DNA of 64,000 nucleotides. It comes from a virus. A program made the translations under genes and the position numbers. Shown in pieces: positions 25,536 to 62,144 of this stretch. The stretch lies in the IMG/VR virus record IMGVR_UViG_3300009374_000001, positions 11,248-75,247 of that record; one strand, written 5' to 3'. Within the stretch, counting starts at the first letter, position 1, and the number at the start of each line of letters is the position of its first letter. The notes under the pieces are model-generated. The model saw only the letters and a list, made by a program, of their open reading frames with translations, searched no databases and was not told the DNA's origin.

Positions 25536-25913
25536 ATGGAAACATTTTTAGAATTTATAGAAAAGGAAGATAAAATTTCAGAAGCTGAAGTTGAATCGCT
25601 TAATGAAAATCTCAAGTCAGAATTAACTGAAGAAGAAGAAGCTGAAGTTGATGCAGCAATCGATGCGTTTGTTGAAGAGTACTTAGATAAAGGAAAAACA
25701 CTCGCGGATCTTAATGAAGAAATGACAAATGAAGGCATACTTGGTGGTATATTTGGTGGACTTACCGGATTTGCATTTGGCAAGAGTGTAGGAAAGCTTA
25801 TTGCAAAAGTCTTAGGAATTAGTAAAGGAGTTTTATATGACTTATTGACTTCAAGACTTGTAGGGGCAGCTCTTGGTGCGGCAATTGGAAATAGTTTAGG
25901 TAAGAAAAAATAA
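25536..25913 (+). CDS. Glycine-zipper protein with acidic N-terminal pro-region and CTS-like start
   Basis: METFLEFIE..., acidic helix to MTNE, then GILGGIFGGLTGFAFG and LVGAALGAAIG. Confidence 0.6.
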   Translation: METFLEFIEKEDKISEAEVESLNENLKSELTEEEEAEVDAAIDAFVEEYLDKGKTLADLNEEMTNEGILGGIFGGLTGFAFGKSVGKLIAKVLGISKGVLYDLLTSRLVGAALGAAIGNSLGKKK

Positions 25914-31149: not shown

Positions 31150-31160
31150 ATATATAATAA
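31149..31160 (+). promoter_or_regulatory. Candidate late promoter heading the cargo cluster
   Basis: AATATATAATAA. Confidence 0.5.
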
Positions 31161-31181: not shown

Positions 31182-31517
31182 ATGAAAAACATAAAATCAT
31201 TTCAAAGTTTTAGTGACTTTCGCAAGGAAGCTGTTATTAAACAAGTAACTGAAGAAAAATCTGCACTACAACAAGAATATGCAGATTTCTTTAAAGACCT
31301 TCTGAAAAAGTATGACGTAGGCTCTCCTGCTGAATTATCTGATGAAGATAAGTCAAAATTCTTTGATGAAGTTTCTACTGGCTGGGATAAAGGCGAAGGT
31401 AAGAATGCTAAAGGTGAAGAATCAGTTGAAGATGTTGAAGAATCAGTTGAAGAATCAGTTGAAGATGCTGAAGAATCACTTGAAGAAGAATTAGATATTG
31501 AAATAACTGAAGAGTAA
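31182..31517 (+). CDS. Acidic prohead-core-like protein with CTS-like start
   Basis: MKNIKSFQSFSDF; ESVE(D/E) tandem repeats; ends EELDIEITEE. Confidence 0.6.
   Translation: MKNIKSFQSFSDFRKEAVIKQVTEEKSALQQEYADFFKDLLKKYDVGSPAELSDEDKSKFFDEVSTGWDKGEGKNAKGEESVEDVEESVEESVEDAEESLEEELDIEITEE
31415..31490 (+). repeat. Short in-frame tandem repeat (gaagaatcagttgaa)
   Basis: About four imperfect copies encoding EESVE. Confidence 0.7.
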
Positions 31518-31521
31518 TATA

Positions 31522-32811
31522 ATGAGGCTTCATTCATTTAAAGATTTTGTAAATGAATCTATGTCTAATTTATTAATTGAAGGTGGATCATTTGGCCATC
31601 TTCAGCACCCATTTGAAGATTTAACATTATCATTTACAGAGATAAAAGAACTTATTGAACTTTCTTTAGATATTGGATTTAGAAGGGAGAACATGGTTTC
31701 TGAGAAAACAGATGGCATTCAACTTTCTATTACATGGAAGAATGATGAGATAAGATTTGCAAAACAGGTTCACACAAAGAAGAATCAGGCAGAGAAAGCT
31801 TGGTTTCTTTCTGATGTTAAAGAGCAATGGAAAGCTGTAGCTGATGTGATGTATTTAGCAGGCTCGGATTTAAGTGCTGCTCTTTCTGCATTACCTAAGA
31901 AATTACTATTAGAAGTATTTGGTGAAGGCAGGAGATTTCTTTCATTAGAAGTTATTCATCCGAAGTCATCCAACACAGTTTATTATGGAAGCCCTTTATT
32001 AGTATTTCATGGCTTAATAGAATATGATGATAATGGTAAACAAGCCTCTGAGATGGATTCTAAGATTACTAAGATGCTTGAGAAAGAACTTGTTAAAGTT
32101 AATGCAAATAAACAATCATCGTTTTCTTTACAAGCTCCTAATTTTATTACACTAGTTAAGTCTGACAAGTTTCCAAAGATAGCAAATACGTTAAAGAGTA
32201 ACGTGAATAAAATTATAAAAGAAGCTGGGCTTAAAGACAGCGATACTATAGGTGATTTGCTATATTATTCGTTCGGTGAAAAGATTAAGTCTTGGGCAAA
32301 TTCATTTAATTATGAAATATCTATAGATGAAATTAATCTACTTTCGCAAAGATTTGCTGAACAAAAAGGTTCATACTTTACAGTTAGAGACATGAAGAAA
32401 ATTGAAAATGAAAAGTTTCAAGAGTGGGTGATTGGCTATTCAGCAAAAGCTGGCGGATGGAAGGCAGATTGGAAAGATTTTGTTCAGCCAATAGAAACTG
32501 TCTTTCTTAAGGTAGGTACAGAAGTAATGCAGCAAATGAGTTCTTATTTAGCAACTGATTTAGATGGAAGTAGCGAAGTAATGAGAAAACAATTAGAGGA
32601 TGCAATTAATGTTATAAACGCGTCTGATAATGCTACAGCTATTAAAAAAGTTGAAAGTGAAATGAAAAGAATTGAAAACGCGGGTGGCTTAAACAAATTA
32701 GTTGCAAGTGAAGGTATAGTTTTTAACTTTAAGGGAAAGCTTTATAAGTTTACTGGTCTTTTTGCTCCAATACATCAAATTGTTTCAATCATAAAATTTG
32801 GAAAGTTATAA
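31522..32811 (+). CDS. ATP-dependent ligase-fold nucleotidyltransferase (RNA-ligase-like) with CTS-like leader
   Basis: Motif I EKTDG, III LSLEVI, IIIa LVFHG, IV EGIVF, V YKF; leader MRLHSFKDFVNE. Confidence 0.65.
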   Translation: MRLHSFKDFVNESMSNLLIEGGSFGHLQHPFEDLTLSFTEIKELIELSLDIGFRRENMVSEKTDGIQLSITWKNDEIRFAKQVHTKKNQAEKAWFLSDVKEQWKAVADVMYLAGSDLSAALSALPKKLLLEVFGEGRRFLSLEVIHPKSSNTVYYGSPLLVFHGLIEYDDNGKQASEMDSKITKMLEKELVKVNANKQSSFSLQAPNFITLVKSDKFPKIANTLKSNVNKIIKEAGLKDSDTIGDLLYYSFGEKIKSWANSFNYEISIDEINLLSQRFAEQKGSYFTVRDMKKIENEKFQEWVIGYSAKAGGWKADWKDFVQPIETVFLKVGTEVMQQMSSYLATDLDGSSEVMRKQLEDAINVINASDNATAIKKVESEMKRIENAGGLNKLVASEGIVFNFKGKLYKFTGLFAPIHQIVSIIKFGKL

Positions 32812-33207
32812 ATGGGTATTATTAAAACGTTTGAGAACTTTATTAATGAAAGAATAGATTATCTTGAAGTTGCAAGTTCTCTTATTAAGCACTATGGCTT
32901 TAATACTAAAGTAAAGTTTGTTAAAAATTTAAAAAATAAAGCTGAATATGATTGGGATAGTGACACAATAAGATTAAGAACTTCATATAAAACAGAGAAA
33001 GATTTTCTTATTACTGTTTTACATGAAATTAATCATGTCAGGGGTGTATATGAAATGGGTGTTAAGAAATATAAAGATGAATATAAGCATGCAGGTGACA
33101 TTGCTTTAGCTAATAACGGAGATTTTTATAAAGATAACAGCTTTGAAATAAAGGCTGAAGATTGGGCACAAAGAGAAGTGAAAAAATGGATAAATAAAAT
33201 AAAATAA
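32812..33207 (+). CDS. HExxH zinc metallopeptidase-like protein with CTS-like leader
   Basis: TVLHEINH...FEIKAE; leader MGIIKTFENFINE. Confidence 0.65.
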   Translation: MGIIKTFENFINERIDYLEVASSLIKHYGFNTKVKFVKNLKNKAEYDWDSDTIRLRTSYKTEKDFLITVLHEINHVRGVYEMGVKKYKDEYKHAGDIALANNGDFYKDNSFEIKAEDWAQREVKKWINKIK

Positions 33208-33211
33208 TAAG

Positions 33212-33481
33212 ATGAAACAATCAGAATTAAGAAAACTAATTAGATTAACAATTAAAGAGCATATGAATGAAGATTCTTCTGGATCATTTCGGTCTAAGAA
33301 GCAAGTAGAACGGTTGACAAAGGGCAAATCTATTCGAGAAACATTTGTAAACCCATCGGTTGAATATAACGTTACTAACGATGGCGGTATTGTAATTTTT
33401 GGTAAAAGAGAAAAAGTTCATTTTACAAAGCAAGACGTTGAAGCTTTAGTAAAACAACTTAAAAGAAAAGGGATTGCTTAA
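33212..33481 (+). CDS. Small hypothetical protein with helical leader
   Basis: MKQSELRKLIRLTIKEHMNE. Confidence 0.6.
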   Translation: MKQSELRKLIRLTIKEHMNEDSSGSFRSKKQVERLTKGKSIRETFVNPSVEYNVTNDGGIVIFGKREKVHFTKQDVEALVKQLKRKGIA

Positions 33482-34068
33482 TGATTTTAGAGTTTAAACA
33501 ATTCGTAGAGTCTATCCAGTCTGAACATACCGGAGAGAAGGTAATTATATTCCCTGGGAGATTTCAGCCATTTCATAATGGGCATCTTAAAGCATTTGAA
33601 AAAGCTTATAAAATGTTCAAGTTAAGAGTTATACCTATACAAATAGTTAGTAAGAATAAGAACTCTCCAATTAAAGACAAAAAGCTCTTACAAGATATGG
33701 GTAATGCATTAGCAAAAGAGAATAAGAAGTTTATTGCAGATATACTGGTAAAGCCTGACAATGTTATGGGAAATATACCGCAAATGATTAAATGGCTTAG
33801 AAGCATTGGTTATAATCCAATGGGCATGGGAACTGGTGAAGATAGATATAAAGGCTATAAAGGCCAAATTGATTATCTTTTATCAGATAAGTCAGATGTG
33901 CCTACAGAAGAATTTGAATTAAAGGTAGTAGATGATAGAACAAGTGGTGCAAGTGGAACCGCAGTAAGACATGCATTTCAAGATGATGACGCAGATGCAC
34001 TTAAAGCGATGATTCCAGAGGTACTATTCTTTAAATTTTATAATAAAATAAAAAAAGCAATACAATGA
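33481..34068 (+). CDS. HIGH-family (cytidylyl/adenylyl-transferase-like) nucleotidyltransferase
   Basis: IFPGRFQPFHNGH, GEDR and SGTAVR; leader MILEFKQFVE. Confidence 0.85.
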   Translation: MILEFKQFVESIQSEHTGEKVIIFPGRFQPFHNGHLKAFEKAYKMFKLRVIPIQIVSKNKNSPIKDKKLLQDMGNALAKENKKFIADILVKPDNVMGNIPQMIKWLRSIGYNPMGMGTGEDRYKGYKGQIDYLLSDKSDVPTEEFELKVVDDRTSGASGTAVRHAFQDDDADALKAMIPEVLFFKFYNKIKKAIQ

Positions 34069-35072
34069 AGATAACAGAACAGAAATTGAGAAAACTTATA
34101 CAAGAAAACATTAAGACCCTTACTGAAAAACTTAAAAGATCATCTAGTGAATATGATAAATTTGAACAATGGCTAATCACTCTTGATCAAATGACAGTTG
34201 GTCATATACTTGACACGTTTGGGACAAAGTTACCAGACGGAGCAGATTTTGATACACCAGGCTATTTCCAAGATGAAGAACTTGACTACGACGATGCTTA
34301 CGATTTCTTTAGGAGTAACATGGGTGCATCTTGGGTTCAAGATATGGAAAAGTTTTATAGCAAAAATAAATCTAAATGCGATAAATACACAGAAAGATAT
34401 ACAAAGCAACTTAAAATCTTTAACGAAAATCATTTAAATGAAAAAGACGTATGGTCTATTAAAGGCTTAGACTCTTCAGATCAACAGGATGTTAATTTAA
34501 TGAAGCGCGCATTTGAACTTGCAAAAGTTAAAATTATAAAGATAGAAAAATATAACGATAGAGCTTACTTTATTACTTTAATTGCAAAAGATGGCAAAGC
34601 CATTATTGATACAGAGATTGATACTTTAAGTAATGTCTTTTATATGAATGATAATAGAGGCAGAAATAAAATCGGCACACTGCATAGAACAAGTGAAGTT
34701 GTTAAGGGTATTAAAGCTCTTGCAAAACTTCCAGGATTTGGACAAACAAGCTTAGTTAAAGTTAAAGAGTCTTTGGACGAAACATATAAGCTTCGCAAAA
34801 TTATTAGAAAAGAACTTCAAACTTTGAATGAAGCTAAGATGAGCAAGAAAGAATATCAAGAAGCAGCAAAAGAATTTGTTAATCAATGGGAAGATGATTT
34901 TAAACAAAGAATCAAAGATGACGGCGGATTTGATTATGAAGAAATGACATATGACACTGCTCAAGCTAATAACTTATGGAACGATGGACCTAAGATGGAC
35001 GCAGATTGGTTATATGACTATATAGAAAAAGAATTAGAAAAGCGACAGTGGTATAAAAAATACACAAAATAA
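34065..35072 (+). CDS. Multi-module hypothetical protein with N-terminal and internal helical leaders
   Basis: MKITEQKLRKLIQENIKTLTE; internal HLNE; internal YKLRKIIRKELQTLNE. Confidence 0.6.
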   Translation: MKITEQKLRKLIQENIKTLTEKLKRSSSEYDKFEQWLITLDQMTVGHILDTFGTKLPDGADFDTPGYFQDEELDYDDAYDFFRSNMGASWVQDMEKFYSKNKSKCDKYTERYTKQLKIFNENHLNEKDVWSIKGLDSSDQQDVNLMKRAFELAKVKIIKIEKYNDRAYFITLIAKDGKAIIDTEIDTLSNVFYMNDNRGRNKIGTLHRTSEVVKGIKALAKLPGFGQTSLVKVKESLDETYKLRKIIRKELQTLNEAKMSKKEYQEAAKEFVNQWEDDFKQRIKDDGGFDYEEMTYDTAQANNLWNDGPKMDADWLYDYIEKELEKRQWYKKYTK

Positions 35073-35082
35073 AAATAATACA

Positions 35083-35310
35083 GTGAAAGAGCAAGAATTA
35101 AGAAAACTTATTAGAAAAGAGCTTAACGAACGTATTTCTGGTTATGATGAATTTGATGTAGCAGTTAAAATTGATTCTGCTATGGAAAAGCTTGACAAAA
35201 ATATGGGAGTTGAAGTATTTGCAAAGGGTATTGCTAATATGTTTAATGACGTATATGGGAAAGAATATGCAAAAGATTTTTATGAAAATATTAACAAAAA
35301 ATATCAATGA
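35083..35310 (+). CDS. Small hypothetical protein with helical leader
   Basis: GTG start, MKEQELRKLIRKELNE. Confidence 0.6.
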   Translation: MKEQELRKLIRKELNERISGYDEFDVAVKIDSAMEKLDKNMGVEVFAKGIANMFNDVYGKEYAKDFYENINKKYQ

Positions 35311-36188
35311 TTAAAACTTTTAAAGAGTTCTTGAAGCTTTATGAAAGCGGTAATGCTATTGATGACGTAAGACCTATTTTAGGTAGAGAGATACCTGAAA
35401 CCTTAGAGCATGTAGAAAGGGATCTTTTAAATGCAGTAGGTTTAGATGGTTTTGATATAGATGCAGCAGTTATAGGTTCAGCTGGAAAGAAAGGCGATGA
35501 TATAGAATCAGGAGATATTGATATTGCGGTAAGTATTGATAAACTTGCAGGTGAAAACTCAACTTCTATCAATGAAGTATTAAAGTTTTTAAATATGACT
35601 TTAAAAGCTGCAGGTTATGATACTGCAGTTAATTATGGATTCAAACAAGTTTCAGTGCCATTTCCTATTAAAGGAGATAAAGCCAATGGATATTGTCAAG
35701 TTGACTTAATGCTTTCGGATAGCTTAGAATGGTCAAAATTTATGTATCATAGTCCAGATTTTACCAAGACAGAGTCAAGATATAAAGGTGCATACAGAAA
35801 CTTATTAATGATGGCAATTGCAACAGAGTCTAAAAAAGAAGCCACTAAGAAACTAGACACTGGAGAAACCGTTGAATATGAGCAGTTAGTCATTAGATTA
35901 AATACAGGTCTTGTTAAAGTTAGAAAGTCTTTACAGGGTAAACGTGGCTTGGTTAAAACACCTAAACTTTTAAAAGATTTTGATAGAGTTGTAAGCAATG
36001 TTCCAGATGAAGTAGCTGAAGCTTTATTTGGTGAAGGCGTTAAAGCTAAAGATATAATGACATTTGAAAAATGCTGGGATCTTTTTAATTCAAAAACATT
36101 TCCATATAAAAATAAAGAAGATATTATTATACAAAAATTTGAAATATATTTAAGTAAATCAAAGTTACCATTCCCTGAGGAACTATAA
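35307..36188 (+). CDS. Pol-beta-superfamily nucleotidyltransferase with CTS-like leader
   Basis: IGSAGKK...SGDIDIAV and third Asp in QVDLM; leader MIKTFKEFLKLYE. Confidence 0.75.
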   Translation: MIKTFKEFLKLYESGNAIDDVRPILGREIPETLEHVERDLLNAVGLDGFDIDAAVIGSAGKKGDDIESGDIDIAVSIDKLAGENSTSINEVLKFLNMTLKAAGYDTAVNYGFKQVSVPFPIKGDKANGYCQVDLMLSDSLEWSKFMYHSPDFTKTESRYKGAYRNLLMMAIATESKKEATKKLDTGETVEYEQLVIRLNTGLVKVRKSLQGKRGLVKTPKLLKDFDRVVSNVPDEVAEALFGEGVKAKDIMTFEKCWDLFNSKTFPYKNKEDIIIQKFEIYLSKSKLPFPEEL

Positions 36189-37090
36189 TGAAAATTGAAT
36201 CATATTCAAATTATACAACTCTACAAGAGGCTAAGCTTTATGGCTTTACTATTAAACAACTGTTAAACAGTACCTTAAAATTTAAAGGTAAGACTCTAAT
36301 TTATTTTGATACTGAAACACTAGGGCTTAAGCCTCATGTAGATTATATTCAGCTTACGCAAGTTGCAGCAATTGCGTATGATGGCTCAACTATGAAAGAA
36401 CTTGATTCGTTTAACACTAAGGCTAAATTAGGAGACCCCGCAAAGCATTTATTAAAACCTGATTCTGATGAAAGAAAAGGATGGGAAGAAAGACAAAAGG
36501 CAAGAGGTAAAAGTAAAGGGTTAAGCAATCCTGATGAACTCTTAAAAATGACAAGATACGGCGATGAGGGTGTTGATTTTATAGAAGAGAAAAAATCAAT
36601 AGAAGATTTTATTTCATTTATATCTAAGTTTAAAGATCCTATTTTAATTGCGCACAATGCACCCTTTGATATGAAATTTATGCATGTAAGAGCTAAATTA
36701 TTTGATTTAAAGTTCCCTAAAGCTGAAGTATTAGATACATTAAAATTGTCAAGACTTTATTTTGTTCCTCTTTTACAAGCTGCTGAGAATAGCAAAGAGT
36801 TAGAAAGTATTTTAACAGCTTTATCTAATAAGTTAAAAACAGGAGAACGTGGAAACAAAGTTTCATCGACGCTTGGAAATTTAGGAAAGGCGTTAGGCGT
36901 AAGTGTTGATTCATGGCATGACGCAAAAGCTGATGTTGAGATGTTAATGCAAATTGTTGAAAGAATGAAAGAATTCTTTACCCAATACATTGATATAGAT
37001 ATTAGTAAGGAGCATCAGCATGCTGCAAAACTCGATGCTCTTTCTAAAAAGCCTTGGTGGTGGTCTAAGAAAAAGAAATACAGGATATAA
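36188..37090 (+). CDS. DEDDh 3'-5' exonuclease (DnaQ-like) with CTS-like leader
   Basis: FDTETLGL, AHNAPFD and WHDAKADV; leader MKIESYSNYTTLQE. Confidence 0.85.
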   Translation: MKIESYSNYTTLQEAKLYGFTIKQLLNSTLKFKGKTLIYFDTETLGLKPHVDYIQLTQVAAIAYDGSTMKELDSFNTKAKLGDPAKHLLKPDSDERKGWEERQKARGKSKGLSNPDELLKMTRYGDEGVDFIEEKKSIEDFISFISKFKDPILIAHNAPFDMKFMHVRAKLFDLKFPKAEVLDTLKLSRLYFVPLLQAAENSKELESILTALSNKLKTGERGNKVSSTLGNLGKALGVSVDSWHDAKADVEMLMQIVERMKEFFTQYIDIDISKEHQHAAKLDALSKKPWWWSKKKKYRI

Positions 37091-37497
37091 TGAAAATTAA
37101 ATCATATCCAAATTATATTACAGAAAATCCAGACAAGATCTATGTTGGTAAGGTAAATGAGTTTGATTATTTAAAATCAGAGCTTGATAATGCTAAGAAA
37201 GTTTTTAAAGAATTACAGAAGATGTACCCAGATATTCCAAAGTTTCCATTAGTCTTTAAAGATTTAAAGGGAAGAGGGAGTGGGTTTTTAACTACGACTA
37301 GATTAAGAGGCGGCAAGTTTATTTTTATAGATAAAATGACTATCGATAATACAGGTTTAACTAGTAACCCAGCGGACTATGCAGTGTGTCATGAATTTGC
37401 TCATGCAATTCTTGCACATACAAAGCAATCGCTTGCTCATAGTAAAGCACACGACAAGCTTACATATAAACTTGCAAAAAAATTTAATTTAGTATGA
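37090..37497 (+). CDS. SprT-like HExxH metallopeptidase with CTS-like leader
   Basis: VCHEFAHA...AHSKAH; leader MKIKSYPNYITE. Confidence 0.65.
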   Translation: MKIKSYPNYITENPDKIYVGKVNEFDYLKSELDNAKKVFKELQKMYPDIPKFPLVFKDLKGRGSGFLTTTRLRGGKFIFIDKMTIDNTGLTSNPADYAVCHEFAHAILAHTKQSLAHSKAHDKLTYKLAKKFNLV

Positions 37498-38558
37498 AAA
37501 TTAAATCATATACAAACTTCATTAATGAAGGTGGCTGGTCAAGTGCAAAGACACAATCTACTGTATTAACCCCACATGTTTTAAAGCTTGCACATGAAAC
37601 ATTACAAAGTATTTTTAAAGAGTTTAATGCCTGGCTTGATAAAGAAGGAATGCCTCCGATGAAACCAATACGGGCAGTTGGCTCAGGCAGTTATTGGGAA
37701 GATGATTTAGTTAATCAACCAGATAAATTATATGGTGATATTGATTACTTATTTGAATATCCGATTTTAGAGTTTGATCCAAATCCTACAAATAATAGAA
37801 AAAATGAATTAGATACAATTAAGCTTTATAATGAAATGCTTTTAGATTGGATAAAGGCGTTTAAGCCAAATTCTGTTGATTATGAAGAGTCTGTTAAGAT
37901 ATCAAGCCCAACAAGTATTAAGCTTTTAATAATTCCAAAAGATGACATGTTTATACAAGCAGACATTTTAATTACTAGTGGCATCTATAAAGATTGGGCG
38001 ATAGGTAGATATACACCAGTAAAAGACATAAAAGGTTTTGTTATTGGCTATTTGTATAAAGCAATTGGCTTGACTTTAACCATGAGCTTTCTTGATAGAG
38101 GAGTAAGAGCAAAGTTTATTGATGGTAACTTAGTTAGTTTTAGAAAGAGAAAAAATGTCGAAGAGATGATTATTAGTTTAGACTTTGGCAACTTCTTATA
38201 CGATATTGCTGAATGGGCAATGGAATTTGATGGTAAGAATAAAAAGAAGATGAAAGTACATAAGCTCCTAAAGCAGCAAAAAGGTTTAACAAGAGATAAT
38301 GTTACACTTGAAAAATTCTGTGTAGGCATTAAGGGTCTTGCATATACATTAGAAATGAACGACTTATTACACATATTCTCTCTTTCAAGTGCAGATGACA
38401 TGATAAACAAGACAGAAGAAAATTATATAAATTCAATATCTGATGTAAGGCATAGCAGTAAGTTTAAGAAAGCTGAAACAGCTCATGCTAGGGCTGCTAT
38501 GGAGAAGATATTTAAATTCATTGATTATGGAATAGAAACAGTAAGTAGAAGTTTATGA
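37494..38558 (+). CDS. Pol-beta-superfamily nucleotidyltransferase with CTS-like leader
   Basis: VGSGS...YGDIDYL and IQADIL; leader MKIKSYTNFINE. Confidence 0.7.
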   Translation: MKIKSYTNFINEGGWSSAKTQSTVLTPHVLKLAHETLQSIFKEFNAWLDKEGMPPMKPIRAVGSGSYWEDDLVNQPDKLYGDIDYLFEYPILEFDPNPTNNRKNELDTIKLYNEMLLDWIKAFKPNSVDYEESVKISSPTSIKLLIIPKDDMFIQADILITSGIYKDWAIGRYTPVKDIKGFVIGYLYKAIGLTLTMSFLDRGVRAKFIDGNLVSFRKRKNVEEMIISLDFGNFLYDIAEWAMEFDGKNKKKMKVHKLLKQQKGLTRDNVTLEKFCVGIKGLAYTLEMNDLLHIFSLSSADDMINKTEENYINSISDVRHSSKFKKAETAHARAAMEKIFKFIDYGIETVSRSL

Positions 38559-40792
38559 AATCACTATATAAAGAAAAGAACTTAGACAAATTATTTAAAC
38601 AGAGTCTTTTAGTAACAGAAAAGATTGACGCGCCTAGAATTAAGGTGAAGAAAGTTAACGATGGTTTTGAAATATTTAAGGCAAATTCAAATACGGCATT
38701 AAACGTAGTTGATAGAACTTTAACATCATTATACGAAAATGCGTATGAGCATTTTTCAAGTTTTTGGAAAGATATGATTGAAGAAGTCCCAGATAATTAC
38801 ATATTTGAAATGTATTATATGACTAATACAAAGCCAGTAAGAACTGAATATGACAGGCTACCGAAGAATAATCTAATACTTATATCAATTCAAGTAATGG
38901 AGAATGATAAAGTTAAAAAGATTATTAGAGAGCCTAAGATACTAAATGAATGGGCAGATAAATTTGAAATAGAACACCCGCCTATTTTATTTAACGATAA
39001 ATTAAGTGAGAATCAGAAATTTAAGTTAAAAGAGTTGCTATCACAGAGCAGTAAAGATGTTTTTGGGCTATTCAGTAATAGTTCATTTACAGCACATATT
39101 ATGTCAGTGCTAGACCCTAGAATTCATGAGATGACACTTAACAAAGATACACATAAGAATACTAATGGATTTATTTTTACATTTCATGCAGGAAAGGTTG
39201 TTTCTAATCTGCTACTACAGAGCTCTCTTAAAGAAAGTAATGATTCATATACGCCTAATGATTCATACGACTTAGTATTACTAGACTTAGTAGAATATAT
39301 GATAAAAGATGAATCATGGGAGCATATTTTGCTTAAAGAACATGGTGAAGATTTAAGATATTTAGAGTGTATCTCAAATATTTTTAATATGTATATGGAA
39401 AAGAATATGCATAGACTTTTAGGAATGAGTTTAGAGAAAATGGATTTTGCAAATAAGCCAGAATTTAAACTTAATAAAAAAAATATTAAGAACAAAAGAA
39501 CTAACGAATTATTAGACATTCATGTTTTAAGTGAAATCTTTCAGGCAATGTTGGGTAGTTTCAGAAAGCATAGAAGCAAAGAAACTACACTAATTTCAAA
39601 TGCTGCTATTACAGAAATAAATTTATTGATTGATAAGATTAATGAAAAGATAGGAAAAGAACCAGATATTATAGAGGACAGCGATGAAGTTAAAGATTTT
39701 GAAAGTTTTATGATTAGTGAAGGTAGAGATGAAATAATTAATAATATAAATCTTTCATTGAAAGACTTGGAGATTGATCAATTAAATTATATCAATACAT
39801 ACATTAATAAACAAGGATTAAGTTCAAAAATTAAAGAGATTTTTTCAGGCTTAGGCTTAACGACTGGTATAGATAAAGTAGTTAATGGCTTTTTATCTTT
39901 ATTAGTTGGCGCAGGCGGATCATTAGAAGATAATATAGAAATAGTTGATAAATTATCAATAGACGGGACGTTATTCAATGATTTAGATATTGGGAAGGTG
40001 TCAAATTTTAAGAATAATTTAATTACTAATAGCAAATTTCACACAAAGCTTATCAAGACTTTTATTGACTGGGAGCCTAAAAAAATAGATAAATCTGCAA
40101 TTGGAAAAGGAGAAGCATTTTTAATTGCTTTATTGGGCGGACGAAAAGCAGAACATGGAGATATTAAAATAGGTGATAATAATTATGAAGTTAAAGGTAG
40201 AGGGGCTCGATTAAAAGCGCAAAGGGGCTATGGTACTTTTATAAATAATGAAAAAACTTTCATTAAAGATTTTTCTAGTGTTGTTAACTATGGGTTTACA
40301 CCAAAAGAGAAAATAAATAATAAATATTTAGATAAAAAGAAAAATATACTACCCTTTAAAGAAATATCTAAAAACATTAACAATATTAATTTTACTGATA
40401 AAGGATTATCAATGTATAGAGAGTTTATATTAAATGCAGATAACCCACTTAAAGCTGTAGAAGTATTACAAGAGTTGTTTAGAAAGATTTTTGTAAATGT
40501 TAGTAATTTTAATGAATTATCATTTTTAGATACTTTAAATTCATCCGCTTCAGAAAAAAAGATGCTTATGGATTTTAAATTAGAGTACAGCAGATTTATA
40601 TTTGATTATTATAAGAAACAAGAAAAATGGGATTATTTAATGTTTATAAATTTAGATAACGCTAATTATGTCTGCATTGAAAAATCTAATGAATTTGTGA
40701 ATTTAATAAAAAATGGAAAAATAAAAATAAATGTAAGCCATAGCTGGACCCAAACACAAAATAATGTTCCACAATATACATTAGTGGCTTAA
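38555..40792 (+). CDS. Fusion: degenerate ligase-like N-domain plus C-terminal PD-(D/E)xK-like nuclease domain
   Basis: VTEKIDA (KxDG-like) near the start; internal VKDFESFMISE; IGKGE...GDIKIGDNNYEVKG. Confidence 0.5.
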   Translation: MKSLYKEKNLDKLFKQSLLVTEKIDAPRIKVKKVNDGFEIFKANSNTALNVVDRTLTSLYENAYEHFSSFWKDMIEEVPDNYIFEMYYMTNTKPVRTEYDRLPKNNLILISIQVMENDKVKKIIREPKILNEWADKFEIEHPPILFNDKLSENQKFKLKELLSQSSKDVFGLFSNSSFTAHIMSVLDPRIHEMTLNKDTHKNTNGFIFTFHAGKVVSNLLLQSSLKESNDSYTPNDSYDLVLLDLVEYMIKDESWEHILLKEHGEDLRYLECISNIFNMYMEKNMHRLLGMSLEKMDFANKPEFKLNKKNIKNKRTNELLDIHVLSEIFQAMLGSFRKHRSKETTLISNAAITEINLLIDKINEKIGKEPDIIEDSDEVKDFESFMISEGRDEIINNINLSLKDLEIDQLNYINTYINKQGLSSKIKEIFSGLGLTTGIDKVVNGFLSLLVGAGGSLEDNIEIVDKLSIDGTLFNDLDIGKVSNFKNNLITNSKFHTKLIKTFIDWEPKKIDKSAIGKGEAFLIALLGGRKAEHGDIKIGDNNYEVKGRGARLKAQRGYGTFINNEKTFIKDFSSVVNYGFTPKEKINNKYLDKKKNILPFKEISKNINNINFTDKGLSMYREFILNADNPLKAVEVLQELFRKIFVNVSNFNELSFLDTLNSSASEKKMLMDFKLEYSRFIFDYYKKQEKWDYLMFINLDNANYVCIEKSNEFVNLIKNGKIKINVSHSWTQTQNNVPQYTLVA

Positions 40793-40800
40793 ATATATAA
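40792..40800 (+). promoter_or_regulatory. Candidate late promoter
   Basis: AATATATAA before ORF 40819. Confidence 0.4.
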
Positions 40801-40818
40801 AAAAACAAATATAAAATT

Positions 40819-41166
40819 ATGACTAAAATTTATGAAAACTTTGAAGACTTTGTTTTTAATGAACTTAATAAAGAAATTGATATTGAACTAGTTGATGAAA
40901 GAGTTGAGGTTAAGCGTAAATACACAGATAAATATCCATCTAAATCCATTAACGCAAAAGCAAGAGTTAGAAGTGCAGTGCTAAGTGCAATGAAAGATGG
41001 GATAGTTACTGAAGAGGAACTTGATAATATTATAGCTGCAGCACAGGGCAGTAAAGCATGGAAGCGTAAAAATACTAAGCTTTTTAAAGTTACAGAAGAT
41101 GGCATTAAACTTTCAAAATTTGGTTCACGAATCTATAGAAGAACTCTAGTTACAGAGGAAAAATAA
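40819..41166 (+). CDS. Small basic hypothetical protein with CTS-like leader
   Basis: MTKIYENFEDFVFNE...LVDE, then a basic domain. Confidence 0.55.
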   Translation: MTKIYENFEDFVFNELNKEIDIELVDERVEVKRKYTDKYPSKSINAKARVRSAVLSAMKDGIVTEEELDNIIAAAQGSKAWKRKNTKLFKVTEDGIKLSKFGSRIYRRTLVTEEK

Positions 41167-41588
41167 TGCCATCTAAGTCAATCGCACAGCAGCGTCTGTT
41201 TGGGATGGCTCTTGCATATAGAAGAGGAGAGCTTAAAAAGTTTGAAATATCTCAAGAAGTTATTGATCTTGCAAATTCAATGTCTGAAAAAGACTTAGAA
41301 GATTTCGCTGAAACTAAGCATAAAGATTTACCATACAAAGTTAAAGAAAATATAGAACTTAATGATATTTCAGGTATGGGAGATGTAGCACTACCTAATA
41401 TGCAAACGCATAATATAGGAAGTGGGGATATGCCGTTTGGGCATCATTATTGCAAATGTTTAAATTGCGGCGAAGTTGCAATTAAAGATGAAGAGGTTTC
41501 ATGCGAATTAATGACTTGTCCTGTATGTCAAAATTCTATGGTAAATGAAAGAAAGTATATAAAAAAATATATTGACTATGTTAGATAA
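41166..41588 (+). CDS. DUF3008-like protein with C-terminal zinc ribbon
   Basis: MPSKSIAQQRLFGMALA...MSEKDLEDFAETKHKDLP; CLNC...CPVC. Confidence 0.6.
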   Translation: MPSKSIAQQRLFGMALAYRRGELKKFEISQEVIDLANSMSEKDLEDFAETKHKDLPYKVKENIELNDISGMGDVALPNMQTHNIGSGDMPFGHHYCKCLNCGEVAIKDEEVSCELMTCPVCQNSMVNERKYIKKYIDYVR

Positions 41589-57194: not shown

Positions 57195-57195
57195 C

Positions 57196-58593: not shown

Positions 58594-60186
58594 GTGGCAG
58601 GTTTTTTAGATAGATTTGGGCCATTTTCAAATACAGCGTTTAAGGCAAGTGATGCTTTAAAGACTTTATCAAACATGGGCATGCGCTATGACGACATGGT
58701 ATTAAGACAGTCTCAAGCAATTGGCGTTATGGAAGATAAATATGGCTTTCATGGCACTAGCAATCTTTTTGGTTCTATGGGCCAGGGTGCAATGCAAGAT
58801 GATTTTTGGTACCCATTTGCAGCAATGTCAATGACTGATGTTTCAATGCGTAAGAACATTAGCTTCTTTGACATGGATTATAAGCAAAGACGAAATGAAT
58901 TAAGGCAGTTTTCAACAAATGACGAAGTAGAAGATATACTTGATACTATGTGTGATGAAGCAATAGTTTATGATGATAGAAACTTTTTTGCAAGTCCAAA
59001 TTTTGGCTCAAGTGACGTTTCAGATGAAGTTAGAAAAGATATTAACAAGTCATTTAATAACATTTATCAATACTTTGGTTTTAATCAAGATCAATCTGCT
59101 TGGACGTTTTTTAGAAAGTGGTTAATTGATGGCTATTTAGCATTTGAAATTATTTATGATGAAGATCAAAAAGAAATTATTGGGTTTAAAGAACTCGATC
59201 CTGCAACACTTATCCCAGGAGTAGATCCTGAAACAAATAAGAAGGTTTGGATTCAAAACAAAGATGAACACCAAAAAGAGCGCAAGCTTTATGATTCTCA
59301 GATTATTTATTTATCATATAGTTCTATTTCATTACAGTCGCGCTCTAGTTATGTTGAGCGGCTGGTAAGATCATTTAATCTTTTACGTATTATGGAACAT
59401 ACAAGAATTATATGGGCAGTTACAAATGCTTCATATAAAATGAAATTTGTTATACCAGTAGGCGGCAAATCAAAGACAAGAGCAAAGCAATCTCTTGCTG
59501 CATTGATGAATAATTATAGAGAAGTAGTTGACTTTGATTATGAATCAGGTAAAATGGAAGTTAATGGTAAACCTATGATGCAATTTAATAAAGAGTATTG
59601 GTTACCAAGTAAAGAAGGTGAAAGACCAGAGATTGAAACACTTGCAGATGAAGGGCCAGATCTTTCAGATACAGAAGCATTAACTTACTTTTCAGATAAG
59701 CTTAAACTCGCAAGTAAGATACCATTCACTAGATTTGAGTATGGGGAAGGTCGCGGGGATTTTGAAATGTCAGGAGATAGCTTAATTAGAGAAGAAATTA
59801 AGTTTAGTAAGTTTATTAATAGACTAAGAAGTTCATTCCAAGAAATACTAATAAAACCATTATATATTCAAGTGGTACTAAAATACCCAGAACTTAAAGA
59901 TGATATGAATTTTAGAGCTAATTTAAGTTTATCATATAATCAAGAAAACATGTTCGCAGAGTTAAAAGAAATTGAAATTATGACAAGACGCTTAGACTTT
60001 ATTTCTTCAATGAAAAATGATCTAACATTTGAAGATGCAGATATGAATGAAATACCATATTTTGATTTAAATTTCTTAATAGAAAGATATTTGAAAATGT
60101 CTCCAGATGATTTAGAAAAGAATAAAGGTTATAAAGAAAAACTTGATAAAGAGGATGATGAAGAGGATTTGAGCGATTTAATCTAG
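58594..60186 (+). CDS. Portal protein, gp20-like
   Basis: FRKWLIDG, YWLP...EIETL, IREEIKFSKFINRLR and FAELKEIE. Confidence 0.92.
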   Translation: MAGFLDRFGPFSNTAFKASDALKTLSNMGMRYDDMVLRQSQAIGVMEDKYGFHGTSNLFGSMGQGAMQDDFWYPFAAMSMTDVSMRKNISFFDMDYKQRRNELRQFSTNDEVEDILDTMCDEAIVYDDRNFFASPNFGSSDVSDEVRKDINKSFNNIYQYFGFNQDQSAWTFFRKWLIDGYLAFEIIYDEDQKEIIGFKELDPATLIPGVDPETNKKVWIQNKDEHQKERKLYDSQIIYLSYSSISLQSRSSYVERLVRSFNLLRIMEHTRIIWAVTNASYKMKFVIPVGGKSKTRAKQSLAALMNNYREVVDFDYESGKMEVNGKPMMQFNKEYWLPSKEGERPEIETLADEGPDLSDTEALTYFSDKLKLASKIPFTRFEYGEGRGDFEMSGDSLIREEIKFSKFINRLRSSFQEILIKPLYIQVVLKYPELKDDMNFRANLSLSYNQENMFAELKEIEIMTRRLDFISSMKNDLTFEDADMNEIPYFDLNFLIERYLKMSPDDLEKNKGYKEKLDKEDDEEDLSDLI

Positions 60187-60254: not shown

Positions 60255-62144
60255 ATGTTGAATAATACAGGTCTTTTAATTCTTGAGAGAAGTGACAATC
60301 CACTAAGTAAATCAGATGAATATATTCTTAGCGGAGTTTTTGGTCAAATTGGCATTAAGAATAAGAATAATAGAATTTATGACAAGAAGGAGCTATTGCC
60401 ACAGATAGAAGCTTTACAGAATAAAATTAAAGCAAGAACACTTTTAGGTGAACTTGATCATCCAGAAAAGTTTGATGTTAGTTTATCGAAGGTCTCTCAT
60501 ATGATTGAAGAACTAATATATGAAGAAGATTCTGGTTTAGTTAAAGGTAGATTAAGACTGTTAGATACTAGTGCAGGCAAAGAAGCCAAAGCATTAGTTG
60601 ATGCTGGCATCCCAATTCATATTTCAAGTAGAGCCGCTGGTTCTGTAAAAGAAAATGGCCATGTTCAAATTGAAAAACTTTTTACATATGATTTAGTTGC
60701 AGATCCTGGTTTTGAAAATGCACAACTTAAAAGGGTTAATGAATCATTAGGTTTTGATAATGATTCAAATGTTCAAATCTTTGAAGTTCAAGGTTATGAT
60801 GAAGCAATAAAAGAAACTGAGGTTACTTCTACACCAGAAGCAGTTAAAGTTGAAGATTTTAACAAGTATTCAAAATATCTTTCATCTGAGCTTAACAAGA
60901 TTAAAGATACAATAAAAGAACCAATTAAGGAAGATAAAAAACCAGAAGAAACTTTAAAATATGTACAGTATTTAGCAGAAACTCTTGACAAGGTTATTTC
61001 ACATAATGACTATCTTGTAAAGAATTTAAATAATACTGTTGCATATACAGAATATCTTGGTGAAAATCTTGATAGCAATATACAATATGCCGAGCATGTT
61101 GCAAAGTCTACTAAAGAAGTTACAGAGTATTCAAATTATCTTGGTGAAAACTTAGAAAATACCCAAGAATACACAAATTATTTAGGTGAAAACATCAGTA
61201 AAGTTATTGATTATGCAGAATATCTTAAAGAAAATTTAGAAACTGTTGGAGATTACTCAGATTATATTGGACTTTCAATTGATGAAATTAGACAGAAGTT
61301 TAATGAAGATCATGATGAATTGGAAGAACTTGATGAAGAACTTGATTTAGAAATAATTGAGGAAGATGAAACAGAAGACATTGAAGATGAAACTGCTGAT
61401 TTAGTCGAACCTGAAGAAGCTGAAGAAGTAGAAGAAGCTGAAGAAGTAGAAGAAGTAGAAGAAGCTGAAGAAACAGAAGACATCGAAGAAGCTGAAGAGC
61501 TTCAAGCTGAAGAACTCGATTTAGAAATAATTGAGGAAGAAAAGCCAGAAGAAGATTTTTATGAAAATGAAAAAATTAAAAGAGTTAAAGACTCTAAACA
61601 GATTATAGCAAAAAATTATAAATCTGAAATAGCTGAAAAGCTAGAAGAATTAGTAAATGCTGCTCATAAACAAACAGCAGCGACTGACGAAGGTGATCTA
61701 CACTTCTTAAAATTCGTAGGTCAAGAAAAACGCAATGAATTTGATTCTCTTTCAGATGATAATAAAGCAAGATTAGTTAAAGTTTTTGAAAGCAAAAACT
61801 ATACTAACGAGAGCGATGTTATTACTGAATGGAATAACGAGTTCGATGAAAACAAAGATACTGAGCCTAAGTTCGTTAAGCTTATGCCAAGTGAATATAA
61901 AGAAGAATGGGAATCATTAACTGAAGAACATCAAAATCTTATATATGCACAAGCTACGCATTTCAATTTAAATTCTCAATATCAAATTGACAGTTTTTGG
62001 CAAGGCAGAAACATGAAAGCTAGAAAAGTTGTTTTAGAAAAGCTTGAAAGCAAGAAAGTTGATGCTCCGAAAGTTAAAAAACTGGTTGAAGAATCTTACT
62101 TGGATGGTTTCCAAAAGAATCTCGCAATGCGTTTTAAAAAATAA
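60255..62144 (+). CDS. Prohead protease (gp21-like) fused to a scaffold/core region
   Basis: NKNNRIY, LGELDHP, ISSRAAG and YDLVADPG, followed by 14-aa YxxYLxEN repeats and a Glu-rich tract. Confidence 0.88.
   Translation: MLNNTGLLILERSDNPLSKSDEYILSGVFGQIGIKNKNNRIYDKKELLPQIEALQNKIKARTLLGELDHPEKFDVSLSKVSHMIEELIYEEDSGLVKGRLRLLDTSAGKEAKALVDAGIPIHISSRAAGSVKENGHVQIEKLFTYDLVADPGFENAQLKRVNESLGFDNDSNVQIFEVQGYDEAIKETEVTSTPEAVKVEDFNKYSKYLSSELNKIKDTIKEPIKEDKKPEETLKYVQYLAETLDKVISHNDYLVKNLNNTVAYTEYLGENLDSNIQYAEHVAKSTKEVTEYSNYLGENLENTQEYTNYLGENISKVIDYAEYLKENLETVGDYSDYIGLSIDEIRQKFNEDHDELEELDEELDLEIIEEDETEDIEDETADLVEPEEAEEVEEAEEVEEVEEAEETEDIEEAEELQAEELDLEIIEEEKPEEDFYENEKIKRVKDSKQIIAKNYKSEIAEKLEELVNAAHKQTAATDEGDLHFLKFVGQEKRNEFDSLSDDNKARLVKVFESKNYTNESDVITEWNNEFDENKDTEPKFVKLMPSEYKEEWESLTEEHQNLIYAQATHFNLNSQYQIDSFWQGRNMKARKVVLEKLESKKVDAPKVKKLVEESYLDGFQKNLAMRFKK
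60960..61270 (+). repeat. 14-aa (42-nt) coding repeat, about 8 units
   Basis: YVQYLAETLDKVIS / YTEYLGENLDSNIQ / YSNYLGENLENTQE / YTNYLGENISKVID / YAEYLKENLETVGD and others. Confidence 0.8.

What the first reader, a model, noticed from the sequence alone, without database searches (positions are those of the whole stretch)
31182..41588. Operon of enzymes tagged with T4-type capsid-targeting leaders: a putative packaged, injected enzyme payload
Seen: unrelated proteins share an N-terminal K-[ST]-[FY]-x-x-[FY] leader, mostly ending in [LIVM]-x-E. Examples are MKNIKSFQSF (31182), MRLHSFKDFVNE (31522), MGIIKTFENFINE (32812), MILEFKQFVE (33481), MIKTFKEFLKLYE (35307), MKIESYSNYTTLQE (36188), MKIKSYPNYITE (37090), MKIKSYTNFINE (37494) and MTKIYENFEDFVFNE (40819); outside the cluster, METFLEFIE (25536) and MKAYNFLKE (55749). 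Replication genes lack it. The cluster is headed by the RATATATAAT motif found before head genes. Known: T4 internal proteins carry a capsid-targeting sequence (IPII/IPIII MKTYQEFIAE; IPI begins MKTFKEF) that gp21 removes after Glu at L/I-x-E, and they are injected with the DNA. Inference: this phage applies the same zip-code to a whole set of catalytic proteins, which are matured in the head and act in the first moments of infection.
Basis: partly seen in the sequence, partly recalled or inferred. Interest (0 to 1): 0.92.

Follow-up and report, generated by a model that had tools for sequence, protein, structure and literature searches.

The report
T4-style capsid-loading tags on phage enzymes
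An uncultured T4-like phage starts about ten unrelated proteins (an RNA-ligase-like enzyme, two polymerase-beta-like enzymes, an exonuclease and others) with a short peptide almost identical to the tag T4 uses to load proteins into its head, so they are probably packed into the virion, trimmed by the head protease and delivered with the DNA, though no experiment has shown this.

Summary
Nine genes at 31182-41166, plus 25536, begin with K-[ST]-[FY]-x-x-[FY]-[ILV]-x-E. The loose motif occurs 7 times against about 1 expected.

The tag is widespread. More than 120 IMG/VR stretches carry MKHIK[LT]FExF[ILV]NE. My loci hold 348 tagged proteins in 192 unrelated cargo clusters, in runs of up to about 14 genes.

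Lines that point to a T4-type capsid-targeting propeptide:
- The aromatic pair and the [ILV]-x-E end match the T4 positions mapped for targeting and cleavage.
- The contig encodes a gp21-type S77 protease with the His and Ser motifs.
- The capsid protein's N-terminus carries conserved LINE, IIE and KLYE sites.
- In 58 of 64 relatives the gene between portal and protease starts with the tag.
- A Lak-phage homologue starts exactly at the predicted mature end, and fused forms keep internal tags.
- Ala or Ser follows the Glu in half of the cases.
- Synonymous codons in the tags are random, so selection acts on the peptide.

Packaging, cleavage, injection and late timing remain inference. This scan reached the same reading earlier on other genomes (AI notes, not independent evidence). 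No paper in the searched library describes the tag. I class it as a new variant of a known kind.

The parts
31150..31158 (+). ATATATAAT promoter-like motif heading the gene run
   Evidence: Lies 32 nt upstream of 31182. The same 9-mer precedes 58288, 60255, the gene after the capsid gene, 1095, 3263, 25536 and 29650. Expression timing was not established.
31182..31517 (+). 111-aa acidic protein with a leader-like start (MKNIKSFQSF) and the C-terminal motif EEELDIEITEE
   Evidence: phrog_28651, function unknown. The acidic ELD-IEI motif also occurs in the protease-scaffold protein and in the ORF after the capsid gene.
31522..32811 (+). RNA-ligase-like covalent nucleotidyltransferase with the leader MRLHSFKDFVNE
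   Evidence: The alignment of 16 orthologues keeps the leader residues F9 and E12, then a variable linker, then the invariant motifs EKTDG and EG..F..K.TG. AF2 model pLDDT 81.5, with the leader and linker below 50. The best structural matches are all RNA ligases, Z 9.7 to 7.9.
32812..33207 (+). 131-aa HExxH zincin-like protein with the leader MGIIKTFENFINE
   Evidence: Weak Pfam MPTase-PolyVal match below the curated cut-off. The HEINH motif is visible in the sequence.
33212..33481 (+). 89-aa protein with the second leader type (MKQSELRKLIRLTIKEHMNE)
   Evidence: No family match.
33481..34068 (+). Cytidylyltransferase/NMNAT-like nucleotidyltransferase with the short leader MILEFKQFVE
   Evidence: Pfam CTP_transf_like, 3.2e-08. 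PHROG cytidyltransferase. Orthologues start MKHIKLFEQFINE. Homologues in other phages align only from residue 15-23 onward.
34065..35072 (+). 335-aa protein with the second leader type (MKITEQKLRKLIQENIKTLTE)
   Evidence: No family match.
35083..35310 (+). 75-aa protein with the second leader type (MKEQELRKLIRKELNE)
35307..36188 (+). Pol X (polymerase-beta)-like nucleotidyltransferase with the leader MIKTFKEFLKLYE
   Evidence: AF2 model pLDDT 85.3, with residues 1-14 below 50. Foldseek matches to Pol beta and Pol lambda at E 2.7e-05, probability 1.0. Invariant E13|[SG]GN, GS and DxD. The Lak-B2 homologue starts MSGMAIKG. 250 homologues, all named 'hypothetical protein'.
36188..37090 (+). DEDDh (RNase T-type) exonuclease with the leader MKIESYSNYTTLQE
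   Evidence: Pfam RNase_T, 1e-10. PADLOC DEDDh, 1.9e-16.
37090..37497 (+). 135-aa HExxH (HEFAH) protein with the leader MKIKSYPNYITE
   Evidence: No family match.
37494..38558 (+). 354-aa nucleotidyltransferase-like protein with the leader MKIKSYTNFINE
   Evidence: The GSGS...DxD motif is visible in the sequence. ESM Atlas structural neighbours are viral hypothetical proteins, DUF6267 proteins and, at TM 0.44-0.49, PolX palm proteins; these are leads only.
38555..40792 (+). 745-aa protein of unknown function, without a leader
   Evidence: No Pfam, PHROG or PDB match. No profile relation to the ligase-like family.
40819..41166 (+). 115-aa protein with the leader MTKIYENFEDFVFNE
   Evidence: The equivalent genes in relatives start MNFQDFLNE or MNRVLSYDQFLNE.
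41166..41588 (+). DUF3008 protein without a leader; marks the end of the run
   Evidence: Pfam DUF3008, 9.2e-15. It holds the same position in relatives.
25536..25913 (+). Leader-bearing acidic protein with a C-terminal glycine-zipper peptide (METFLEFIE)
   Evidence: Orthologues start MKTFVEYLNE or ..IKTFNEYLIE.
58594..60186 (+). gp20-type portal protein
   Evidence: Pfam Portal_T4, 6.1e-79.
60255..62144 (+). gp21-type (S77) prohead protease fused to a long scaffold-like acidic tail
   Evidence: Pfam Peptidase_S77, 1.9e-13. PHROG head maturation protease, 9e-42. Aligns to T4 gp21 with LGELDHP and SSRAAGS conserved. Carries an N-terminal LLILE like T4's LLIE, and 37 [LIVM]xE sites.
62163..63509 (+). 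gp23-type major capsid protein with a site-rich N-terminal region
   Evidence: Pfam Gp23, 8e-45. Five of its 7 [LIVM]xE sites lie in residues 1-43 (INE6, VIE18, INE25, MSE34, LYE43). LINE, IIE and KLYE are conserved in 80 relatives.
63644..64000 (+). ORF after the capsid gene (runs off the window end) with a variant leader (MNIKQIDFYLKTMNE) and an acidic ELDLEIIEE region
   Evidence: The genes after the capsid gene in relatives start MMKTFNNWYNLINE, MKLKSKLKLYEQFVNE or MDKFENWFNKVNE.

Best explanation
The shared N-terminal peptide is a capsid-targeting propeptide of the T4 type. I infer the following mechanism.
1. The aromatic pair (F/Y at i and i+3) docks the newly made protein onto the prohead core as the head assembles.
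2. The gp21-type protease (60255-62144, here fused to the scaffold-like protein) then cuts after the Glu of [ILV]-x-E. This releases the mature protein inside the head.
3. The mature protein stays with the DNA and enters the host on infection.

In this phage the tagged set includes an RNA-ligase-like enzyme, two polymerase-beta-like nucleotidyltransferases, a DEDDh exonuclease, a cytidylyltransferase/NMNAT-like enzyme, two HExxH proteins and several small unknown proteins. Its most likely role is a ready-made nucleic-acid end-repair or counter-defence kit.

Shown here: the motif, its spread, its modularity, its link to head genes, and the presence of the protease. Inferred: docking, cleavage, packaging, injection and the function of the cargo.
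For: 1. Motif match to T4. The T4 record gives IPIII MKTYQEFIAE|A, IPI MKTFKEF...ITE|A, gp23 ..FLTE|A and gp24 ..LLRE|S. PMC9026906 reports that CTS residues 4 and 7 serve targeting and residues 8 and 10 serve processing, and that gp21 cuts after L/I-x-E. The consensus of the 348 leaders is M-K-H-I-K-[LT]-F-E-x-F-[ILV]-N-E. Conservation stops at the Glu, and Ala or Ser follows in 175 of 348 (about 4 times background).

2. Protease. The contig has an S77 protease with the His and Ser motifs aligned to T4 gp21.

3. Capsid protein. Its N-terminus is rich in the same sites, and LINE, IIE and KLYE are conserved in 80 relatives. The NTase leader ends in KLYE.

4. Head modules. In 58 of 64 relatives the gene between portal and protease, where T4 has gp67/gp68, begins with the leader. 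The gene after the capsid gene often does too.

5. Modularity.
- The Lak-B2 homologue of the NTase starts MSGMAIKG, at the predicted cut E13|SGNAI.
- Cytidylyltransferase homologues in other phages align only from residue 15-23.
- Fused forms keep internal ..EEFVNE|S and ..FEQFVSE|SGNAI joints.
- The leader and linker have pLDDT below 50 in both models.

6. Spread.
- The 348 tagged proteins fall into 192 cargo clusters.
- At least 10 leader contigs are also among the 80 closest capsid-protein relatives.
- LR756500.1 has 21 leader starts against 1 in the reversed-pattern control. The same pattern recovers T4 ipII and ipIII.

7. Selection on the peptide. Within a genome, the share of identical codons among leaders equals the expectation from codon usage: 0.59 vs 0.60, 0.64 vs 0.67, 0.57 vs 0.58.
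Against: - There are no proteomic, N-terminal or expression data for this phage or for any cultured relative. The nearest cultured phage with a homologue, Microcystis phage Mel-JY01, lacks the leader.
- In the window the run sits among replication genes (helicase upstream, dUTPase, RNR and polymerase downstream), not in the head module.
- The promoter-like motif cannot be told apart from one found upstream of genes that are probably early.
- 31182 and 33481 depart from the canonical end.
- Ligase, PolX and exonuclease activities are ordinary intracellular functions and would not need packaging.
- The T4 gp23 cleavage site could not be aligned to a site in this capsid protein, because BLAST aligns only residues 178-434.
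Confidence: 0.72

Rival explanations
1. The leader is a prohead-directed, protease-cut propeptide, but the tagged proteins act during head assembly or inside the capsid (core or scaffold accessories, DNA condensation, genome end processing). They are not an injected enzyme payload.
For: The most conserved leader-bearing gene in relatives is a roughly 112-aa acidic protein in the gp67/gp68 position. 31182 and the ORF after the capsid gene share the acidic ELD-IEI motif with the scaffold-like protease tail.
Against: Most cargo clusters are small, hypervariable and specific to one genome (192 clusters), as T4 internal proteins are. Some cargo looks like counter-defence or RNA-repair enzymes, such as Acb1-like and cREC_REC proteins. 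In T4, by established knowledge, CTS proteins are ejected with the DNA.
Confidence: 0.12
2. The leader is a shared docking or regulatory peptide for something other than the capsid, for example a replisome or clamp hub, a chaperone or a degradation tag.
For: The run lies in the replication module. T4 gp61.1, next to the primase gene, also starts MKTFKEFIKE. Ligases, polymerases and exonucleases often carry clamp-binding peptides (general knowledge).
Against: - The motif does not fit the known clamp-binding consensus, which has adjacent aromatic residues.
- The leader is present on head-module genes in 58 of 64 relatives.
- It ends invariably in Glu, and Ala/Ser is enriched after it.
- It is kept at the joints of fused proteins.
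- It sits on about 190 unrelated small proteins.
Confidence: 0.1
3. The shared start is a DNA- or RNA-level feature: a recombination cassette for shuffling genes, or a translation-initiation element. On this view it is not a peptide signal.
For: The first 24 nt of 36188, 37090 and 37494 are nearly identical, including synonymous sites. A-rich codons after ATG are common in well-translated genes (general knowledge).
Against: In five relatives with 8 to 14 leaders each, synonymous codon choice within the leader core is no more alike than codon usage predicts, while the amino acids are almost invariant. Upstream sequences differ between leader genes.
Confidence: 0.04

Closest known systems
Phage T4 internal proteins IPI, IPII, IPIII (and Alt), with the capsid-targeting sequence processed by the gp21 protease
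   Same: A 10-20-residue N-terminal tag with K-T-[YF]-x-E-F-[IL]-x-E. It has aromatic residues at i and i+3, a cut after L/I-x-E, usually before Ala or Ser, a gp21-family protease, hypervariable cargo behind a conserved tag, and an enzyme among the cargo (Alt).
   Different: - There are 10 to 20 or more tagged genes per genome, against 3-4 in T4.
- The consensus is MKHIK[LT]FExF[ILV]NE, with flavours specific to each genome.
- The cargo includes ligase-like, PolX-like, exonuclease, NMNAT-like, ATP-grasp and GNAT proteins.
- Fused polyprotein forms with internal tags exist.
- The protease is fused to the scaffold-like protein.
- The clade is uncultured, and nothing has been shown by experiment.
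Ejection and inner-body proteins of phiKZ, 201phi2-1 and SPN3US, processed by a gp21-like protease
   Same: Many head-internal proteins, some of them enzymes (virion RNA polymerase), carry N-terminal propeptides that are removed after x-x-E.
   Different: Those propeptides are 80-160 residues long, are not a short shared tag, and are cut at S/A-x-E.
Encapsulin cargo-loading peptides and the P1 Dar head proteins (from my own knowledge)
   Same: A short address label or dedicated pathway loads unrelated proteins into an HK97-fold shell. In P1 the Dar proteins are injected as anti-restriction factors.
   Different: Encapsulin tags are usually C-terminal and are not cleaved. P1 uses an ordered protein-protein dependency, not a shared cleavable tag.
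Virion-packaged DNA-repair enzymes (Pol X, ligase, AP endonuclease) of African swine fever virus and giant viruses (from my own knowledge)
   Same: The same combination of a small PolX-type polymerase and a ligase. The Atlas neighbours of 37494 include giant-virus PolX-ligase fusions.
   Different: Those are eukaryotic viruses with no CTS-type tag. Here packaging is only inferred.

Membership tests
T4-type capsid-targeting sequence (CTS) propeptide | Lies at the extreme N-terminus and is about 10-20 residues long | tested here: met
   The predicted propeptides are 9-16 residues long in the window. Conservation spans positions -5 to +6 around the aromatic pair and then stops.
T4-type capsid-targeting sequence (CTS) propeptide | Aromatic residues at CTS positions 4 and 7 (i, i+3), which T4 needs for targeting (PMC9026906) | tested here: met
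   All 10 window leaders have F/Y at i and i+3. The second aromatic residue of the pair (F9) is invariant in the ligase-family alignment, which was built without selecting on the motif.
T4-type capsid-targeting sequence (CTS) propeptide | Ends in the gp21 site L/I-x-E, cut before a small residue | tested here: met
   The [ILV]-N-E end. Ala or Ser follows the Glu (the P1' position) in 175 of 348 leaders, about 4 times background. E12 and E13 are invariant in alignments A1 and A2. Window exceptions: 31182, and 33481 with F-V-E.
T4-type capsid-targeting sequence (CTS) propeptide | The genome encodes a gp21-family prohead protease | tested here: met
   Pfam S77 scores 50.8 bits against a cut-off of 27. 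LGELDHP and SSRAAGS align to T4 gp21.
T4-type capsid-targeting sequence (CTS) propeptide | Other head proteins (the capsid protein propeptide) carry the same cleavage motif | tested here: inconclusive
   Conserved LINE, IIE and KLYE sites cluster in capsid protein residues 1-43. The T4 cleavage position could not be aligned to them.
T4-type capsid-targeting sequence (CTS) propeptide | The tag is separable from the cargo (a portable module) | tested here: met
   The Lak-B2 homologue starts at the predicted mature end. Homologues without a leader exist in other phages. Fused forms keep internal tags at their joints. The tagged proteins fall into 192 unrelated cargo clusters.
T4-type capsid-targeting sequence (CTS) propeptide | The protein is found in the prohead or virion with the tag removed, and is ejected with the DNA | not testable with these tools
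   This needs virion proteomics, N-terminomics and an infection assay. No cultured member was found.
Covalent nucleotidyltransferases (RNA/DNA ligase, capping enzyme) - protein 31522 | A KxDG lysine motif, the EG..K and K.K motifs, and the adenylyltransferase fold | tested here: met
   Invariant E61-K62-T63-D64-G65, E397-G398, K409 and T411-G412. All of the top 40 structural matches are ligases, with Z up to 9.7 over 190 residues at rmsd 4.2. No Pfam or PDB sequence match, so the subfamily is undefined.
Pol X (polymerase beta-like) nucleotidyltransferases - protein 35307 | A palm with GS and DxD metal-binding motifs, plus the thumb | tested here: met
   Invariant G57, S58, D70 and D72. Foldseek matches to Pol beta and Pol lambda at E 2.7e-05, probability 1.0, about 240 columns, TM 0.37-0.45. 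Activity and substrate are unknown.

The most novel reading that the evidence does not exclude
A large, abundant clade of uncultured aquatic T4-like phages loads a changeable set of 10 to 20 or more proteins into the capsid through one cleavable address tag. The set includes a conserved nucleic-acid repair kit: a ligase-like enzyme, a PolX-like enzyme, an exonuclease and an NMNAT-like enzyme. If so, the genome arrives with its own repair and counter-defence enzymes. The tag itself would then be a sequence handle for listing the injected proteome of hundreds of environmental phages.
Probability: 0.45. Interest if true: 0.85.

Novelty: new variant of a known kind. Interest (0 to 1): 0.72.

Why it matters
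- Proteins injected with phage DNA act before any phage gene is expressed, and in T4 they are counter-defence factors. They are hard to find because they share no family.
- A conserved, recognisable tag would let the injected proteome be read directly from sequence in a widespread uncultured phage clade. That clade has 542 capsid-protein relatives in IMG/VR, and my sample alone holds more than 190 cargo families.
- The result points to a conserved ligase/PolX/exonuclease/NMNAT-like module as possible virion cargo. To my knowledge that has no phage precedent.
- It gives the T4 CTS packaging technology a natural library of tag variants and tolerated cargos.

Tried and rejected
- **Complex prediction.** I ran the protease-scaffold protein (A4) against residues 1-32 of the NTase (A2). 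The answer was no verdict, score 0.00. This is evidence neither for nor against binding.
- **Searches that found nothing.**
  - Megablast of the cluster against phage records.
  - tblastn of 37494.
  - The pattern search for relatives of 31522; orthologues of 31522 later turned up in loci fetched by other queries.
- **PDB sequence searches.** All four large proteins gave nothing.
- **Profile comparisons.** No relation was seen between 38555 and the ligase family, or between the two NTases. I therefore dropped my early guess that 38555 is a second ligase.
- **PADLOC.** Only the DEDDh hit.
- **Promoter timing.** ATATATAAT precedes both the head genes and the cluster, but TATATAAT also precedes the dUTPase and gp55-like genes. 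In relatives the region upstream of the capsid gene holds a different conserved element. Late expression could not be established.
- **DNA-level explanation.** Rejected as the main cause on codon statistics. Three adjacent window leaders do share DNA locally.
- **Literature.**
  - No paper prints these leader strings.
  - No paper describes a CTS in environmental T4-like phages.
  - An earlier scan note says homologues were seen by mass spectrometry in virions; I could not trace or verify this.
- **Orthologue search.** No orthologue of the relatives' 112-aa head-module leader protein exists in this contig.


Full report
**What the window is.**
- The window is 64 kb of a 75,247-bp linear contig.
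- It has about 30% G+C, and every gene lies on the + strand.
- It is a distant T4-type phage. It encodes a Gp23 capsid protein (62163-63509, Pfam 8e-45), a Gp20 portal (58594-60186), an S77 prohead protease (60255-62144), a gp32 homologue (27027-27941) and replication genes.
- The nearest phage record is the uncultured 462-kb LR756500.1, at 52% capsid-protein identity. The Lak phages follow at about 40%.
- IMG/VR holds 542 capsid-protein relatives, the closest at 61-69% identity.

**The observation.**
- All the listed N-termini are real.
- Among the contig's 74 genes, the strict motif [FY]xx[FY][LIVMFT]xE occurs at 4 N-termini, against 0.27 expected.
- The loose form occurs at 7, against about 1.1 expected. 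The maximum in 2000 shuffles was 5. All 7 sit in one 10-kb run.
- The tagged proteins are unrelated to one another.
- 55749 is a weak match. 25536 is genuine, because its orthologues carry canonical leaders.

**The leader elsewhere.**
- Seventeen loci fetched with the 35307 protein show runs of 7-14 adjacent genes that all start MKHIKLFEQFxNE, MKNIPTFEDFVNE or MKYVKTFExF.
These gave 179 gene starts, with a median cargo of 130 aa.
- Across all fetched loci I found 348 distinct tagged proteins in 192 BLAST clusters.
- At least 10 leader contigs are also among the 80 best capsid-protein relatives.
- The complete LR756500.1 genome has 21 leader starts, against 1 for the reversed control. The same pattern finds ipII and ipIII in T4.

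**Comparison with T4.**
- The T4 record gives IPIII MKTYQEFIAE|A, IPI MKTFKEF..ITE|A, gp23 ..FLTE|AEIGG, gp24 MAKINELLRE|S and Alt MELITE|L.
- PMC9026906 reports that CTS positions 4 and 7 carry targeting and positions 8 and 10 carry processing. It also reports that gp21 cuts after L/I-x-E, first seen as a glutamyl-alanyl bond.
- The environmental consensus, M-K-H-I-K-[LT]-F-E-[QED]-F-[ILV]-N-E, places aromatic residues at i and i+3 and an aliphatic residue and Glu at i+4 and i+6. This is the T4 spacing.
- Conservation stops at the Glu. The next residue is Ala (96) or Ser (79) in 348 leaders, about 4 times background.

**The head machinery fits.**
- The protease aligns to T4 gp21 with LGELDHP and SSRAAGS preserved.
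- It starts ..LLILE, like T4's ..LLIE.
- It is fused to a 400-residue scaffold-like tail full of [LIVM]xE sites.
- Five of the capsid protein's seven [LIVM]xE sites lie in its first 43 residues.
- The pattern MANLINE/AEIR..PIIE/SATGIN../..HKLYE/DA is conserved in 80 relatives. KLYE is also the end of the 35307 leader.
- I could not align the T4 gp23 cut to these sites.

**The leader belongs to head modules.**
- In 58 of 64 relatives, the gene between portal and protease begins with the leader. This is the position of T4's prohead-core genes 67 and 68. An example start is MKIIKTFEDFITE|DA.., and the protein has an acidic tail.
- The remaining six start in a similar way.
- The gene after the capsid gene often carries a variant leader, as does the truncated ORF at 63644 in the window.
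- The window has no orthologue of the 112-aa protein.
- 31182 shares the acidic ELD-IEI motif with the scaffold tail.

**The leader is a module.**
- The Lak-B2 homologue of 35307 begins MSGMAIKG, exactly at the predicted cut E13|SGNAI.
- Cytidylyltransferase homologues in Stenotrophomonas, Xanthomonas and Vibrio phages align only from residue 15-23.
- Mel-JY01 fuses the cytidylyltransferase-like and ligase-like proteins without a leader.
- In L004, L005 and L010, extra domains are fused in front of the NTase and each joint keeps a leader (..EEFVNE|S....FEQFVSE|SGNAI). This is what cleavable linkers would look like.
- In both AlphaFold models the leader and linker have pLDDT below 50 while the cores are confident.

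**Peptide or DNA.** Within five genomes carrying 8-14 leaders each, the fraction of identical codons for identical residues equals the codon-usage expectation: 0.59/0.60, 0.64/0.67, 0.57/0.58, 0.62/0.68 and 0.53/0.56. Selection therefore acts on the peptide. Yet each genome has its own flavour (KSY in the window, KLFE, KTFE, IPTFE), which suggests co-adaptation to a partner within that genome. In the window, three adjacent leaders do share 23 of 24 nt, so local copying also occurs.

**The cargo.**
- **31522** is an RNA-ligase-like covalent nucleotidyltransferase.
  - It has invariant EKTDG and EG..K..K motifs, and the model has pLDDT 81.5.
  - All top structural matches are RNA ligases, with Z up to 9.7.
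- **35307** is Pol X-like.
  - The model has pLDDT 85.3, and Foldseek gives 2.7e-05 to Pol beta and lambda.
  - The GS and DxD motifs are invariant.
- **37494** is probably a second enzyme of that kind.
- **36188** is a DEDDh exonuclease.
- **33481** is cytidylyltransferase/NMNAT-like.
- **32812 and 37090** carry HExxH motifs.
- A Pfam survey of 120 cargo representatives from relatives found mostly nothing. Scattered hits were ATP-grasp, GNAT, cREC_REC, AAA, Tlde1/YkuD and one weak Acb1 match.
- The conserved core looks like an end-repair set. Its role is inferred.

**What is missing.** There is no evidence of packaging, cleavage, injection or timing. The ATATATAAT motif links the cluster to head genes and to the UvsW-like helicase, but it is too close to motifs upstream of probably early genes to decide timing.

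**Status and verdict.**
- No paper in the library describes this tag.
- Earlier follow-ups of this scan reached the same reading on other genomes. Those are AI notes and not independent support.
- It is a new variant of a known kind.

Noticed in passing
window 8819, 25925, 33212, 34065, 35083, 58288: A second, longer leader class (MK.[ST]ELRKLIREEI...) heads six otherwise unrelated small genes. Each ends in an [LM]-x-E site (SLNE, HMNE, TLTE, ELNE, SLHE, VIKE). One of these genes sits directly upstream of the portal gene.
   Followed up: partly
L223 (T4 NC_000866 18966-19130, gene 61.1): The pattern that recovers ipII and ipIII also hits T4 gp61.1, a 54-aa hypothetical protein next to the primase gene. 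It starts MKTFKEFIKE, a CTS-like start in a replication-gene context like the one here.
   Followed up: partly
L142-L221, about 90 nt upstream of the capsid gene: Relatives share a conserved element upstream of the capsid gene: a hairpin-like CAGTTAAGAAGCAAAAGACTG flanked by TCGA, then AACCATTAAAAA. It may be a 5'-UTR or processing element. The window lacks it, with only 18 nt between the protease and capsid genes.
   Followed up: no
window 60255-62144, 63644-64000, 31182-31517: The protease is fused to a scaffold-like tail with repeated YL(G/K)ENL units and acidic ELDLEIIEE boxes. The same acidic box recurs in the ORF after the capsid gene and at the C-terminus of 31182.
   Followed up: partly
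L222 8338-10257 (Microcystis phage Mel-JY01): A 640-aa protein annotated 'cytidylyltransferase like protein' fuses the cytidylyltransferase-like and RNA-ligase-like modules, which are separate genes in the window (33481 and 31522). The fusion suggests that the two act together.
   Followed up: partly
window 36188, 37090, 37494 (first 24 nt): Three adjacent leaders share 23 of 24 nucleotides (ATGAAAATT[A/G]AATCATAT.CAAA). This suggests local copying of the leader between neighbouring genes, unlike the randomised codons seen in relatives.
   Followed up: yes
window 57163-57669: A TnsA-like endonuclease domain protein (Pfam 1.8e-18) lies between the gp55-like gene and the portal gene. It keeps this position in relatives.
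   Followed up: no
alignment A3 (leader cargo from relatives): Among the tagged cargo of relatives are ATP-grasp (RimK-like) enzymes, a cyclic-phosphate-processing receiver domain (cREC_REC), GNAT acetyltransferases, Tlde1/YkuD-like domains and a weak Acb1 (anti-CBASS) match.
   Followed up: no
window 41572-41970: A holin (phrog_3427, 2.2e-25) lies directly after the cluster, before the dUTPase gene. It starts at a TTG that overlaps the end of the DUF3008 gene.
   Followed up: no
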